From the NCBI GenBank assembly GCA_963844965.1, contig CAWJQC010000008.1, positions 1 to 64,000 on the forward strand: a stretch of 64,000 nt of DNA, given 5' to 3'. A program made the position numbers. Position 1 is the first letter of the stretch; each line of letters begins with the position of its first letter. This document shows, one piece after another, positions 18,001 to 21,000 of the stretch. This DNA is from an uncultured bacterium (GTDB taxonomy: Bacteria > Patescibacteriota > Minisyncoccia > UBA6257 > 2-01-FULL-56-20).

Positions 18001-21000
18001 ACCGATGACAACGCGGTCGTCAACTTTTATTACCGGCACTCCAAGCTGGTGGGAAACGTCAATCATTTCCTTTCGCGCGGTAAGGTCCGCCAAAACATCG
18101 CGCTCTTCAAAAACCACGTTATTCTTCTTGAAGTACTCCTTCGCCATTTTGCAGTAAACACAGGAGGGGGTTGTGTAGATTTTTACTTTAGGCATACAAA
18201 TAGTGCGATACCAATATACTAATGCATGCGCCTGCCTACCGGCAGGCAGGAATGATACTAACCATACAGATTCGTATTATTCGTATCATTAGTACAATCC
18301 GTATATTGGTATCATCACATAACTTTTACTTTTTTATTTGTTCTTCCGGCGACGACACCGGAGCTTTTCCGAAAATTGTCCAAATATTAATCAGAACGAG
18401 AAGCAGGCCAGCTATTACATTCCCCCACTTCATCAGAGTGATACTTGAGAACCCGAGAGACCCAAGGAGAAACCGTGAGCCAGGCACCTATTATAAGCTG
18501 AATCCAGTTGGATGTCATGGTTCCATTATAACACACGCGTCGGGGGCTTAAACCGACGAGCCATAAACGCGAATCCCCCGCGCTCCGATTCAAATCGGAG
18601 CGCGGGGGATTCTGAATTCATACTACATTCTACTTTCTACTTACTACCTACTAATTTGCTATCTTCCGAACGATTGCCTGGTCGCCTTGTAGCAATCAAA
18701 GCATTGCAGCTTATCCAGGCGAGCCGGATCGGGCTTGAATCGGAGCATTTCGATTCTGGCACCGCACTTGGAACAAACCCATCCGCCGGTGCAACCATCG
18801 GCATCACCGGCGCGATGCTCGGGACGAGGCTGATTATTAAAGTCCATAATCTTTGTGTATTATGTTTTTCGCCCTTTGCCCCCACACCAAACAGCGAGAG
18901 TGCTACGCATAAAACAACTGATGCTCGCCGTTTGGTGTGGGGGTTTATGTTTGCGTGTATAACGCGAACACCGCGAAAATATTATCGCAACATTCGCATA
19001 TATAACTAGTTGTTATTATTTATTTCGTTTTCAGCGCCGCGTCAATTGCATCCGCGAACTGCTGATAAGGAAGAGCTCCGAGAAATTGCTGGCCGTTTAT
19101 GTATGATGTTGGCGTGGAATTAACTCCTGCCGCCTGCGCGTCGGCGGTGTCTTTCTGAACCTGAGCCGTGTATTTCCCAGAATCAATGCAGCTTGCGAAA
19201 GCTTTCGTATCAATGCCAACGTTGGCCGCCAGTTTCATAAACAGGTCTCTCGTCAAATAACCGCTGTTTTCTCCACGGCTATTAGATGTCTCGGCTCCGT
19301 ACAGCGCGTCGTGATAAGCCCAAAACTTGGATTGATCCTTCGCGCATTCGGCGGCGGTCGCGGCGGCAAGCGATTCGGGCCCCAAAAACGGAAAATTTCT
19401 GAAGACCATCTTCATCTTGCCCGTCTGCACGTAATTAGTCACCAAAAGCGGCTGCGTTTCGCTGAAAAATTTTGTGCAGAAAGGGCATTGATAATCAGCG
19501 TATTCTATGAAGGTGACGGGCGCGTTCGGATTTCCTAAAATTACGTCGCGGTTTCCCAATTGCGGTATGTTGCCGCCGTTTGTCGTCCCACCAGCGCCAG
19601 CGCCGCCACCAGCATTCGCGCCGACAGCAGGCAGGTTGTTCACGCCCGGAGTCGCGCCAGTATTTTTATTTAGGACCATATAAACGACGGAGCCGGCAAT
19701 CAAAACTCCGGCAATCAAAATGCTCACCGGCAGGAAATAATCCCGCTTCTTGCCAACTTCAGATGTCCCAACCATAAGTTCCGCCTCTTCGGAAACTTCC
19801 ACGCCTTCCGGCGCTAAATTATTATTTTTTCTCATGGTAGTATAGTGGTCATATTACACCAACGCCCCCACGGGGTCAAGTGTGTAAAGATAGGGCGTAA
19901 TCCGCAGGAAAAAGTTTCGTTGAAATCACGAAAACGCCGTAAGTGATGAAGGGTGCCGCGAAGACGTCAATGGAATAGTGCACGTGGGCCAGGAGCACGC
20001 TCGCTCCGAAAAACACGGTAGCCAGAAGGAAGAATCTCCGCCAAAATGTCTTGTTCCAGAATATAAGTGCCATAAGAAATGGAAAACCGGTATGGGCCGA
20101 GAAAAAGTAATTGCCCTGGAACGATACAAGATTGTAAAATCCGTAACCGATATCGGTCGGATTCAAAATGATTCCCCTCGGATAAATACCGATGTGAGTA
20201 AGACTCATGAAAAACGCCCGGAAAATTATGAAAAGCGCCACCGCCTTTATGCTGAAAAGCAGATAGCGCGGTTTGGTGGCGAGCAGAAGCCACACGAAGA
20301 TCCAGAAAAGCAGCACTCCCTGCACTATGACAAAGTCCAGATTCACCACAGGAAGATTATCAAGAAACAAATCGCCGGCGAAATGAGCCGAAGTTGCGGA
20401 TCTTGTGGAATAATGGCCGGCGCTGATCTGTATTATCAAACTTAAAACAATGAGCAACAAACCCAAATACAGCGATTTCTTGTTGCGCTCCGACCAAAAA
20501 CCGCCGTAATGCTCCGCAAAAATCTTTTTCATCCCGTTAGAAGCAGGTTGCGGTCAGCGCCTACCTGCAATTATTTTCATAATTTAATATTGTTTTTTAA
20601 TCCCGCAAGATATGTTTTCCGCAACGCGACCGCGCCTGCCTGCCGGCAGGGCTTCTAACGGGACTCATACAAATTCATTATACTTTACAATATAGTTTTG
20701 GCGAAACGCTCTTCTGATTACTTATTAAACGAATAATGAGTTAAAATTAAATCATGTACGCTTCGGGCCTACAGGCGATTTCACAGTGGGTAATCGCAAA
20801 CGGCTACTTATTGATGTTCGTCCTCATGCTTTTAGAAGGTCCCGCCGTCACCGCGGCCGGAGCGTTCGCCGCCGCGCTCGGGATTTTCAACATATGGACA
20901 GTGTTTTTCCTGTCCGTTCTGGGAAATTTGATACCCGATGCCATCTATTACGCCATCGGCTTTTGGGGGAGAGAAGGTGTTGTGGAAAAATACAACCGCT

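What the first reader, a model, noticed from the sequence alone, without database searches (positions are those of the whole stretch)
18330..19019. A 700-bp gene-poor stretch packed with extreme hairpins: a 42-bp perfect palindrome, a 65-bp hairpin and a small Zn-ribbon ORF
18571-18612 is a perfect 20+2+20 palindrome (gaatcccccgcgctccgatt-ca-aatcggagcgcgggggattc), preceded by a second hairpin (18535-18555). 18879-18943 forms a stem of about 23 bp with a 25-nt loop and a U-rich tail. The only plausible ORFs are a 62-aa CxxC...CxxC protein (18659-18847) and a roughly 43-aa hydrophobic peptide. Perfect palindromes of this length in DNA are typical of protein-binding or recombination sites, or of very stable RNA terminators/REPs. 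No U-tail is present on the relevant strand for the 42-mer.
Basis: seen in the sequence. Interest (0 to 1): 0.5.

Follow-up and report, generated by a model that had tools for sequence, protein, structure and literature searches.

The report
Long terminator-type hairpins between small redox-cluster genes
The stretch is not empty: it holds two small conserved genes of a Patescibacteria thiol-redox gene cluster, and the striking 42-bp palindrome is an overgrown version of the ordinary transcription-terminator hairpin that follows the zinc-ribbon gene in all relatives, so the finding is real but largely ordinary.

Summary
The hairpins are real and extreme. The 42-bp palindrome (18571-18612) and the 65-nt hairpin (18879-18943) rank 1st and 3rd of all 70-nt windows in the 64 kb.

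The stretch is not gene-poor. All genes here lie on the minus strand in a cluster conserved in Patescibacteria MAGs: DsbA-like, Zn-ribbon (ZnR), SPW-repeat membrane protein, glutaredoxin, thioredoxin reductase.
- ZnR (18847..18659) is under strong purifying selection (dN/dS about 0.03).
- The "hydrophobic peptide" is an SPW gene broken by one extra G (18461-18463).

In most of the 13 related loci a hairpin directly follows the ZnR stop codon, and in at least seven it is a canonical terminator with a U-tail. The window, L001 and L008 share the core CCCCCGC..GCGGGGG with compensatory changes. In the window the stem has grown to 20 bp and the U-tract has decayed to background.

Best reading: a terminator-derived 3'-end hairpin for ZnR, upstream of a conserved, probably leaderless SPW promoter.

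The 65-nt hairpin is absent from all relatives. It is a lineage-specific insertion into the ZnR leader, 5 nt upstream of an invariant AAAGGGCGAA motif.

There is no Rfam match, no second copy and no sign of an assembly artefact. Interest is low. The conserved leader motif is the only element that may be new.

The parts
19020..19835 (-). DsbA-like thioredoxin-fold protein (271 aa), the upstream gene of the cluster
   Evidence: Pfam Thioredoxin_4 at 2.5e-40 and DSBA at 1.9e-17. The same gene precedes ZnR in most related loci.
18958..19004 (-). Hairpin A, 3' of the DsbA-like stop: 15+4 bp, 5 of them G.U on the minus strand, no U-tail
   Evidence: -18.5 kcal/mol on the minus strand against -12.5 on the plus strand. 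The 5 G.U pairs are listed. This asymmetry points to an RNA structure on the gene (minus) strand.
18971..18979 (-). UUUUCGCGG, possible 5' arm of the ZnR leader stem; it pairs with GCGAAAA of the conserved motif and competes with hairpin A
   Evidence: The MFE fold of 18980-18866 closes this 7-bp stem around the 65-nt hairpin (-57.2 kcal/mol, z -8.3). Relatives have UUUCGCCC paired with GGGCGAAA.
18879..18943 (-). 65-nt hairpin (20-bp stem, 25-nt loop), a lineage-specific insertion in the ZnR leader
   Evidence: It is absent from all 13 related loci. Its flanks ACATAAA / CAAAGGGCGAAA match the contiguous ACATAAATAAAGGGCGAAA of L008. The one stem mismatch is G.U on the minus strand (18929/18893) and A.C on the plus strand.
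18867..18877 (-). AAAGGGCGAAA, the conserved ZnR leader motif, ending 20 nt before the ATG
   Evidence: AAAGGGCGAA is invariant in 9 aligned loci and ends 15-21 nt before the ATG. It is unique in the window, where chance expectation is met only by this site and one 1-mismatch hit.
18659..18847 (-). ZnR: 62-aa CxxC-x20-CxxC zinc-ribbon protein gene
   Evidence: Homologues at 87, 78 and 62% identity and 9 more in Patescibacteria MAGs. Against L001: 26 synonymous and 8 non-synonymous codon differences, 29 of 38 differences at third positions, dN/dS 0.03. The family has 107 clusters at E<=1e-3. No curated family passes threshold.
18621..18653 (-). 7-nt tandem repeat (minus strand (A/U)A(A/U)GUAG, 4.7 copies) between the ZnR stop and the palindrome
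   Evidence: TRF period 7, 84% matches. GGTAGTAAGTAG and AGTATGAAT are shared with L001.
18571..18612 (-). 42-bp perfect palindrome: the ZnR 3'-end hairpin, derived from an intrinsic terminator; tail GCGUUUAUGG at 18570-18561
   Evidence: Homologous hairpins occur in L001 (17 bp) and L008 (13 bp, one U.G on the sense strand), and canonical terminators in L002, L003, L007, L009, L010, L013, L014.
18535..18555 (-). Small hairpin (6-bp stem, 9-nt loop) between the palindrome and the SPW promoter; not conserved
   Evidence: L001 and L008 carry different sequence at this place.
18525..18533 (-). TGTTATAAT, an extended -10 box 6 nt upstream of the SPW start codon (probable leaderless promoter)
   Evidence: TG-n-TA(T/G/A)AAT lies 6-7 nt before the start codon in the window, L001, L008 and L002. 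L003 has TATACT-6-ATG and L007 has TAAAAT-7-ATG. Function is inferred.
18326..18518 (-). SPW-repeat small membrane protein gene, interrupted by a 1-nt insertion (an extra G in GGG at 18461-18463)
   Evidence: The frame-corrected product hits Pfam SPW PF03779 at 3.5e-9, 37.5 bits against a cut-off of 31.5. The DNA alignment with 4 intact orthologues shows a single extra base. An SPW gene follows ZnR in most loci.

Best explanation
The region is the middle of a minus-strand thiol-redox gene cluster of a Patescibacteria (CPR) bacterium. The order is DsbA-like, ZnR (62-aa zinc ribbon), SPW membrane protein (frameshifted here), glutaredoxin, thioredoxin reductase.

The 42-bp palindrome is the RNA hairpin at the 3' end of the ZnR transcript. 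It descends from the ordinary Rho-independent terminator found at that place in relatives. In this lineage and in L001 the GC-rich stem grew to 17-20 bp while the U-tract decayed.

Proposed mechanism, all inferred:
- The hairpin forms in the nascent minus-strand RNA.
- It stops RNA polymerase inefficiently, or with NusA/NusG help.
- It then blocks 3'-to-5' exonucleases, defining and stabilising the ZnR 3' end.
- It insulates ZnR from the SPW gene, which has its own extended -10 promoter placed so that the mRNA is leaderless.
- The perfect symmetry is most simply kept by intrastrand template-switch correction of quasi-palindromes.

The 65-nt hairpin is a separate thing. It is a lineage-specific palindromic insertion into the ZnR leader, nested just upstream of a conserved AAAGGGCGAA element. 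It is probably tolerated because it folds on itself. Any function, such as a barrier to read-through from DsbA or a 5' stabiliser, is speculative.
For: Gene content and strand. Synteny holds in 13 loci from independent assemblies, nine of them named Patescibacteria, Parcubacteria, Liptonbacteria or Saccharibacteria MAGs. ZnR is a real gene, with dN/dS 0.03.

A hairpin starts 1-55 nt after the ZnR stop in every locus examined.
- L002, L003, L007, L009, L010, L013 and L014 are canonical terminators. Their tail scores are 2.1-4.3, against a background mean of 0.72 and sd 0.79.
- The window, L001 and L008 share the core CCCCCGC-(GC)-TYCG...CGGA-(GC)-GCGGGGG followed by GCGTTT or TGTGTTTT.
- One pair is flipped in L008 (T-A to A-T).
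- Three pairs are changed on both sides in L001 (A-T, T-A, T-A to G-C, C-G, C-G).
- A 2-bp indel is symmetric in both arms.
- L008 has a U.G wobble that pairs only on the sense strand.

In hairpin A and the 65-nt hairpin, G.U pairs also favour the minus strand.

The SPW promoter box is conserved 6-7 nt before the start codon.

The 65-nt hairpin is absent from relatives, and its flanks are contiguous in L008.

In L001 the same spacers carry other lineage-specific structured insertions: a structured element of about 130 nt, and an 85-nt AT-rich element shared with L002. This shows turnover of palindromic inserts.

Another gene in the window (52531..53415) is followed directly by a 23-bp hairpin without a U-tail.

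Literature: typical terminator stems are 7-9 bp, and stems above 14 bp are functional and confer resistance to antitermination (PMC10325885).
Against: - The window's tail (0.63-1.2) is no more U-rich than background, so a defining feature of intrinsic terminators is missing.
- Purified mycobacterial RNA polymerase does not terminate at hairpins lacking U-tracts, even with NusA and NusG (PMC3993855).
- No transcript data are available, so neither termination, 3' ends nor the leaderless SPW start is shown.
- Covariation rests on only three close loci.
- The rest of the source genome could not be searched for further copies.
- Three consecutive sense-strand hairpins without U-tails fit a processing or stability role as well as termination.
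Confidence: 0.65

Rival explanations
1. The hairpins are RNA processing or stability punctuation, not terminators. The cluster is transcribed as one long mRNA. The 19-20-bp perfect stems are RNase III cleavage sites or exonuclease barriers that cut it into segments with different half-lives, as in phage T7 early mRNA and E. coli REP-stabilised messages (own knowledge).
For: - Three successive sense-strand hairpins (hairpin A, the 65-nt hairpin, the palindrome) lack U-tails.
- The stems reach about two helical turns.
- G.U pairs favour the mRNA strand.
- A second gene-end hairpin without a U-tail lies at 52478-52533.
Against: - The palindrome is positionally and sequence-homologous to canonical terminators with U-tails in relatives.
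- SPW has its own conserved promoter box directly after it.
- No RNase III gene or cleavage data were examined.
Confidence: 0.18
2. The palindromes are selfish or neutral: insertions or hairpin-templated expansions with no function of their own. This is my leading view for the 65-nt hairpin, but a rival for the 42-mer.
For: - The 65-nt hairpin is absent from all relatives.
- L001 and L002 share an 88% identical 85-nt element in front of different genes.
- L001 has a structured insert of about 130 nt in the ZnR-SPW spacer.
- A short palindrome, CCTGCC..GGCAGG, recurs three times in the window.
Against: - The 42-mer occupies the terminator position, shares its core and tail with relatives, and keeps pairing through compensatory changes.
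- Neither long hairpin has a second copy in the window or in the fetched loci.
Confidence: 0.1
3. The 65-nt hairpin belongs to a plus-strand small or antisense RNA. It would be a Rho-independent terminator (hairpin plus UUUAUGUUU) ending a short transcript antisense to the ZnR leader.
For: The plus-strand tail score is 3.46, about the top 1% of the window. The terminator scan lists a site at 18924-18941 on the plus strand.
Against: - The U-tail is simply the conserved A-rich leader ACATAAA read backwards. It is also present in relatives that lack the hairpin.
- The stem mismatch is A.C on the plus strand and G.U on the minus strand.
- A 25-nt loop is atypical for a terminator.
- No plus-strand gene or convincing promoter lies upstream.
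Confidence: 0.05
4. The 42-mer is a DNA-level site: an operator for a dimeric regulator, a recombination or resolution site, or a cruciform. Alternatively it is an assembly foldback artefact.
For: Perfect dyad symmetry over 42 bp.
Against: - The apical half-site sequence is not conserved, only the pairing is.
- Stem length varies from 7 to 20 bp among relatives.
- No recombinase, integrase or transposase is adjacent.
- Cumulative GC skew is monotonic, so there is no origin or terminus here.
- The flanks are colinear with independent assemblies that have their own version of the hairpin, which excludes a foldback chimera.
Confidence: 0.02

Closest known systems
Canonical Rho-independent (intrinsic) terminators, as found after ZnR in the relatives L002, L003, L007, L009, L010, L013 and L014
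   Same: Position directly after the stop codon on the sense strand. GC-rich stem with the shared core (A)ATCCCC(C)GC...GCGGGG(G)AT(T). A remnant of the ...AUU(UU)GCGUUU tail.
   Different: The stem is 19-20 bp, against 7-9 bp typical (PMC10325885). The tail score is at background, so there is no 7-9-nt U-tract.
Extraordinarily long-stem terminators (TerR of plasmid pLS20, 15 bp; TerMutS, 14 bp), PMC10325885
   Same: A very long, nearly perfect stem at the end of a transcription unit. In that study, the length itself gave a property: resistance to processive antitermination.
   Different: TerR has A- and U-tracts. No antitermination system is known or seen here. The stem here is longer still.
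'I-shaped' U-tract-less putative terminators of mycobacteria and other lineages
   Same: A stable hairpin after a gene with no U-tract.
   Different: Their function is disputed. Purified mycobacterial RNAP needs a U-tract (PMC3993855). Here the hairpin can be traced to a canonical ancestor by comparison with relatives.
REP/BIME elements and MITE-like palindromic inserts (own knowledge)
   Same: Intergenic, strongly palindromic, able to stabilise upstream mRNA. Related genomes show dispersed palindromic inserts.
   Different: REPs are multi-copy. Neither long hairpin has a second copy in 64 kb, in the fetched loci or, for the 42-mer arm, in JGI metagenomes.
RNase III processing hairpins (phage T7 early region, rRNA and rpsO-pnp leaders; own knowledge)
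   Same: Intercistronic stems of about 20 bp on the mRNA strand.
   Different: No cleavage evidence. Classical sites often carry internal loops, whereas these stems are perfect or nearly so.

Membership tests
Intrinsic (Rho-independent) terminator | GC-rich RNA hairpin shortly downstream of a stop codon on the sense strand | tested here: met
   The hairpin starts 46 nt after the ZnR stop on the minus strand, at -44.7 kcal/mol.
Intrinsic (Rho-independent) terminator | A 7-9-nt U-rich tract immediately after the stem | tested here: not met
   The tail GCGUUUAUGG scores 0.63 (1.2 if counted from the GC core), against a background of 0.72 +/- 0.79. Relatives score 2.1-4.3. I therefore do not file it as a canonical terminator, only as derived from one.
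Intrinsic (Rho-independent) terminator | Homology or positional equivalence to proven or canonical terminators | tested here: met
   Same position, shared stem core and shared tail remnant with canonical terminators in 7 related loci.
Intrinsic (Rho-independent) terminator | Transcript 3' ends map just after the hairpin | not testable with these tools
   No transcriptome data are available for this organism.
REP / MITE / other repeated extragenic palindromes | Multiple dispersed copies in the genome | tested here: not met
   The arm occurs only at this site in the window with up to 3 mismatches. The JGI metagenome scan gave 2 single-arm chance hits in coding DNA. The 65-nt arm is unique in the window and absent from 105 loci. 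The remainder of the source genome could not be searched.
Operator / dimeric protein-binding palindrome | Half-site sequence conserved, spacing fixed | tested here: not met
   The apical 3-7 bp and the stem length differ between the window, L001 and L008, while pairing is kept.
Any Rfam family (riboswitch, sRNA, leader, etc.) | Covariance-model score at or above the gathering threshold | tested here: not met
   There are 0 hits in the window and in 12 related loci. Only sub-threshold miRNA-precursor models match the hairpins, at 25 bits against 70-82.
RNase III substrate | About 20 bp or more of continuous dsRNA | tested here: met
   19-20 continuous pairs in the palindrome; 20 pairs including one G.U in the 65-nt hairpin. 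Actual cleavage is not testable here.
SPW repeat protein (Pfam PF03779) | Profile score above the gathering cut-off; W..SPW motif in a transmembrane helix | tested here: met
   37.5 bits against a cut-off of 31.5, but only after removing the extra G. The motif WLTVSPW is present. Intact orthologues are aligned.
CxxC-x17-CxxC domain (TIGR04272) / zf_Tbcl_2 (PF23477) | Profile score above the curated cut-off | tested here: not met
   11.5 bits against 36, and 12.6 bits against 27. The spacing here is CxxC-x20-CxxC. The AF2 model is of low confidence, pLDDT 64.
Assembly foldback artefact | Inverted duplication with non-colinear flanks, absent from independent assemblies | tested here: not met
   The flanks (ZnR, SPW) are colinear with 13 independent loci. 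L001 and L008 carry homologous hairpins.

The most novel reading that the evidence does not exclude
Two readings are not excluded.

(1) The invariant AAAGGGCGAA element upstream of ZnR usually pairs with UUUCGCCC to close a loop of variable length, 11-37 nt. In the window, a weaker 7-bp version of this stem may enclose the 65-nt hairpin. This could be an undescribed cis-regulatory RNA, or an operator, controlling a zinc-ribbon gene in the Patescibacteria thiol-redox cluster. It might be bound by ZnR itself.

(2) Very long hairpins without U-tails after genes could be a CPR-lineage solution for 3'-end formation. That would mean factor-dependent termination or RNase III punctuation, rather than decayed terminators.
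Probability: 0.15. Interest if true: 0.5.

Novelty: new member of a known kind. Interest (0 to 1): 0.2.

Why it matters
Mostly as a correction. An apparently empty, hairpin-packed stretch resolves into two small conserved genes plus a terminator-derived hairpin, and the SPW gene would be missed or mis-called because of a 1-nt frameshift.

It also gives a small, clean example of how a canonical terminator can evolve into a 20-bp perfect palindrome while losing its U-tract. That bears on the long-running question of whether hairpins without U-tracts terminate transcription in lineages poor in canonical terminators.

The conserved ZnR leader motif and the conserved DsbA-ZnR-SPW-Grx-TrxR cluster give testable handles on redox biology in uncultured Patescibacteria.

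Tried and rejected
- **Rfam.** I scanned at gathering threshold (window and 12 loci) and at E<=10 on the region. Only chance miRNA-like hairpin matches appeared.
- **tRNA/tmRNA.** None in the window.
- **Exact-protein look-ups.** The window's ZnR, DsbA-like and Grx proteins are not on record, so the source genome is not in the collections and genome-wide copy number could not be checked.
- **Metagenome scan.** It returned two unrelated single-arm hits, so a ZnR-based metagenome scan was no longer possible.
- **Viral scan.** A scan with AATCCCCCGC-N(10-26)-GCGGGGGATT gave 87 hits. This stem sequence is therefore not specific enough, on its own, to indicate homology.
- **Promoter hunting by consensus around the ZnR leader.** No convincing -35/-10 pair appears in the window. 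I considered and dropped the idea that AAAGGGCGAAA is a -35 box, an extended -10 spacer or a Shine-Dalgarno sequence. The spacing to any candidate -10 is inconsistent, and it ends 15-21 nt before the ATG.
- **Antiterminator idea.** Alternative pairing of 18541-18549 with 18572-18580 (pair I12) is not conserved and is kinetically implausible on the sense strand.
- **AlphaFold2 of ZnR.** The 4-sequence alignment gave pLDDT 64, too low for a fold search.
- **PDB sequence search.** Only weak LIM or zinc-finger similarities.
- **Type I toxin-antitoxin reading** (small hydrophobic peptide plus hairpins). Rejected, because the peptide is a fragment of a conserved syntenic SPW gene.
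Full report
**1. Observation**

The sequence features are real.
- Arms 18571-18590 and 18593-18612 form a perfect 20+2+20 palindrome.
- The arm has no other match in the window with up to 3 mismatches, and no match in any shuffle.
- As RNA it folds at -44.7 kcal/mol on the minus strand (z = -8.8) and -41.5 on the plus strand (z = -9.4).
- In a scan of all 70-nt windows on both strands (mean -14 to -16, sd 5.5 kcal/mol), it ranks first and the 18879-18943 hairpin ranks third.
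- The second hairpin has 20-nt arms, 95% complementary, around a 25-nt loop.
- A third hairpin (about 19004-18958) and a 7-nt tandem repeat (18621-18653) also lie in the stretch.

**2. What is encoded**

Every gene from 14738 to 20532 is on the minus strand.

| Gene | Coordinates (minus strand) | Evidence |
|---|---|---|
| GroEL-sized ORF (554 aa; assigned by size and position only) | 16402..14738 | |
| GroES-sized ORF (96 aa; assigned by size and position only) | 16801..16511 | |
| Thioredoxin reductase | 17922..16987 | |
| Glutaredoxin | 18195..17959 | |
| SPW-repeat protein | 18518..18326 | |
| ZnR | 18847..18659 | |
| DsbA-like | 19835..19020 | |
| PAP2 | 20532..19876 | |

The 62-aa CxxC...CxxC ORF (ZnR) is a real gene.
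- It has homologues at 87, 78 and 62% identity, and nine more in Patescibacteria, Parcubacteria, Liptonbacteria and 'Saccharibacteria' MAGs.
- Against L001 it shows 26 synonymous and 8 non-synonymous codon differences. Of 38 nucleotide differences, 29 are at third positions. dN/dS is 0.03.
- A full-library profile search finds a small family: 107 clusters at E<=1e-3, many with two tandem copies of the domain.
- No curated family passes threshold.
- The AF2 model is of low confidence.

The 'hydrophobic peptide' is part of an SPW-repeat membrane protein gene.
- Joining the two frames gives a product that passes the Pfam SPW cut-off (37.5 bits against 31.5).
- Alignment with four intact orthologues shows one extra G in the run GGG at 18461-18463.

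The order DsbA-like, ZnR, SPW, Grx, TrxR recurs in most of the 13 related loci. The stretch is therefore not gene-poor.

**3. The 42-bp palindrome**

On the sense (minus) strand it begins 46 nt after the ZnR stop. It ends 38 nt before a conserved promoter box for SPW.

Related loci show a hairpin shortly after the ZnR stop, clearly so in most of them.
- In L002, L003, L007, L009, L010, L013 and L014 it is a textbook terminator. Examples: AAAAATCCCCGCttcgGCGGGGATTTTT in L003 and AAAATCCCCcattGGGGATTTTGCGTTT in L013.
- Their U-tail scores are 2.1-4.3. The window background is 0.72 +/- 0.79.

The closest relatives have clearly homologous hairpins.
- L001: AATCCCCCGCTCCGGCC-aa-GGCCGGAGCGGGGGATT, followed by gcgttt.
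- L008: ACCCCCGCTTCGA-atcata-TCGGAGCGGGGGT, followed by tgtgtttt.

Relative to the window, the stem changes while pairing is kept.
- One pair is flipped in L008 (T-A to A-T).
- Three apical pairs are replaced on both sides in L001.
- A GC/GC dinucleotide is present or absent symmetrically in both arms.
- L008 carries a U.G wobble that pairs only on the sense strand.

So pairing is what is maintained, not half-site sequence, and the sense RNA is the likely structured molecule.

The window and L001 have the longest GC-rich stems (20 and 17 bp) and the weakest tails (0.5-1.3). The defining U-tract of an intrinsic terminator is therefore not met in the window. I describe the element as terminator-derived, not as a canonical terminator.

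Literature context:
- Typical stems are 7-9 bp. Stems above 14 bp are functional and confer resistance to antitermination (PMC10325885).
- Purified mycobacterial RNAP does not terminate without a U-tract (PMC3993855).

My committed mechanism is a 3'-end-forming and protecting hairpin for ZnR, with weak or factor-assisted termination. This is an inference.

**4. What follows the palindrome**

TG-n-TA(T/G/A)AAT lies 6-7 nt before the SPW start codon in the window (18533-18525), L001, L008 and L002. L003 has TATACT-6-ATG and L007 has TAAAAT-7-ATG. This suggests an independent, leaderless SPW transcript, which is what one expects downstream of a terminator.

The small hairpin 18535-18555 is not conserved.

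**5. The 65-nt hairpin**

It is absent from all relatives.

Its flanks in the window are ACATAAA on one side and CAAAGGGCGAAA on the other. They correspond to the contiguous ACATAAATAAAGGGCGAAA of L008. It is therefore a lineage-specific insertion.

The single stem mismatch is G.U on the minus strand and A.C on the plus strand. Hairpin A, just upstream, has five G.U pairs on the minus strand (-18.5 against -12.5 kcal/mol).

Relatives carry different structured inserts in the same spacers.
- An 85-nt AT-rich element is 88% identical between L001 (before ZnR) and L002 (before Grx).
- L001 has a structured insert of about 130 nt in the ZnR-SPW spacer.

Palindromic inserts evidently turn over quickly in these spacers. 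I regard the 65-nt hairpin as such an insert, of uncertain function.

**6. Conserved leader motif (side result)**

AAAGGGCGAA is invariant in nine aligned loci. It ends 15-21 nt before the ZnR ATG and is unique in the window.

In L003, L007, L010 and L014 it pairs with an upstream UUUCGCCC to close a loop of 11-37 nt, and L009 and L013 use the one-base variant CUUCGCCC. MFE folds recover this stem in the four loci folded, L003, L009, L010 and L014.

In the window a 7-bp version (UUUUCGC/GCGAAAA) would enclose the 65-nt hairpin, but it competes with hairpin A.

Both arms are essentially invariant, so there is no covariation. RNA structure and DNA motif cannot be separated here. Rfam has nothing for it.

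**7. Alternatives**

- **REP or MITE.** No second copy in the window, in the loci or, for the 42-mer arm, in JGI metagenomes. The two metagenome hits are single-arm chance matches in GC-rich coding DNA.
- **Operator or recombination site.** Half-sites are not conserved, no recombinase is nearby, and the GC skew is monotonic.
- **Foldback artefact.** Excluded by colinear flanks and by homologous hairpins in independent assemblies.
- **RNase III or stability punctuation.** This remains a serious rival (about 0.18), because three consecutive sense-strand hairpins lack U-tails. Another gene (52531..53415) also ends in a 23-bp hairpin without a U-tail.
- **Plus-strand sRNA terminator for the 65-nt hairpin.** Unlikely, for the reasons given in section 5.

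**8. Verdict**

The thing is a new member of a known kind: a long-stem, U-tract-poor derivative of an intrinsic terminator between small genes of a conserved Patescibacteria redox cluster, plus a lineage-specific palindromic insert. Interest is low (0.2). The conserved ZnR leader motif is the only part that might be new.

Limits:
- There are no transcript data.
- There are only 13 comparison loci.
- The rest of the source genome was not available.

Noticed in passing
window 18461-18463 (minus-strand SPW gene 18518..18326): There is one extra G in a GGG run relative to four intact orthologues. It splits the SPW-repeat gene into two ORFs. It could be a sequencing or assembly indel, or a true pseudogene.
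   Followed up: yes
window 18867-18877 and 18971-18979; L003, L007, L008-L011, L013, L014 upstream of ZnR: An invariant AAAGGGCGAA element ends 15-21 nt before the ZnR ATG. It usually pairs with an upstream UUUCGCCC around a variable loop. It is unique in the window and has no Rfam match. It is a candidate ZnR-specific cis-regulatory element.
   Followed up: partly
window 18231-18250, about 20634-20652, about 22670-22690; also L002 1-15: A short palindrome, (G)CCTGCC(TR)CCGGCAGG(CAGG), recurs in three intergenic spacers. CTGCCGGCAGG gives 7 strand matches against 0.79 expected. This may be a small REP-like element or a regulator site.
   Followed up: partly
window 18196-18325 (SPW-Grx spacer): A Y-shaped structure is closed by a perfect 13-bp stem, GATACCAATATAC/GTATATTGGTATC (-52.6 kcal/mol, z -6.8). 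It contains a 9-nt tandem repeat (ATTCGTATT, 4.9 copies) and the CCTGCC..GGCAGG palindrome.
   Followed up: partly
window about 12233-12371, minus strand: A TTGACA-17-TACAAT promoter-like site is followed by about 130 nt of structured RNA. This ends in a long hairpin plus CUUUUUCUUUU, in the gap between two minus-strand genes. It is a candidate small RNA gene with no Rfam hit.
   Followed up: no
window 52225-52535: This is another hairpin-packed spacer. A 23-bp hairpin (-38.9 kcal/mol) starts right after the stop of gene 52531..53415 and has no U-tail. Two further hairpins lie at 52348-52398 (with a UUUAUUAUU tail) and 52281-52350.
   Followed up: partly
L001 9918-9999 and L002 613-697: An AT-rich element of about 85 nt is 88% identical between the two loci. 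It sits directly before the start codons of different genes (ZnR in L001, Grx in L002). It is a dispersed intergenic element in related Patescibacteria.
   Followed up: partly
L001 about 10311-10441: A strongly structured insert of about 130 nt lies between the ZnR hairpin and the SPW promoter, with long-range arms GUUUCCGAUUUUAAGAAGC/GGUUCUUGAAAUCGGAAAC. It is absent from the window.
   Followed up: no
window 18621-18653: A heptamer tandem repeat lies between the ZnR stop and the palindrome (plus strand TACTACT, minus strand (A/U)A(A/U)GUAG, 4.7 copies). It is partly conserved in L001 (GGTAGTAAGTAG, AGTATGAAT), although third codon positions in the adjacent ZnR gene differ at 29 of 63 sites.
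   Followed up: partly
window 18525-18533 and the equivalent sites in L001, L002, L003, L007, L008: The SPW genes have a -10 (often extended -10) box 6-7 nt before the start codon, which implies leaderless mRNAs. ZnR, Grx and SPW all lack a recognisable Shine-Dalgarno sequence.
   Followed up: partly
window 1-2000: GC content is 0.595 with positive GC skew, against about 0.49 and negative skew over the rest of the window. This may be a compositionally foreign segment.
   Followed up: no
whole window: No tRNA, tmRNA or any Rfam family at gathering threshold was found in 64 kb.
   Followed up: yes
ZnR family (P0004-P0110): Many relatives of the 62-aa ZnR are about 100 aa long and carry two tandem copies of the zinc-ribbon unit. 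One is a 1523-aa protein with 10 matched stretches.
   Followed up: no
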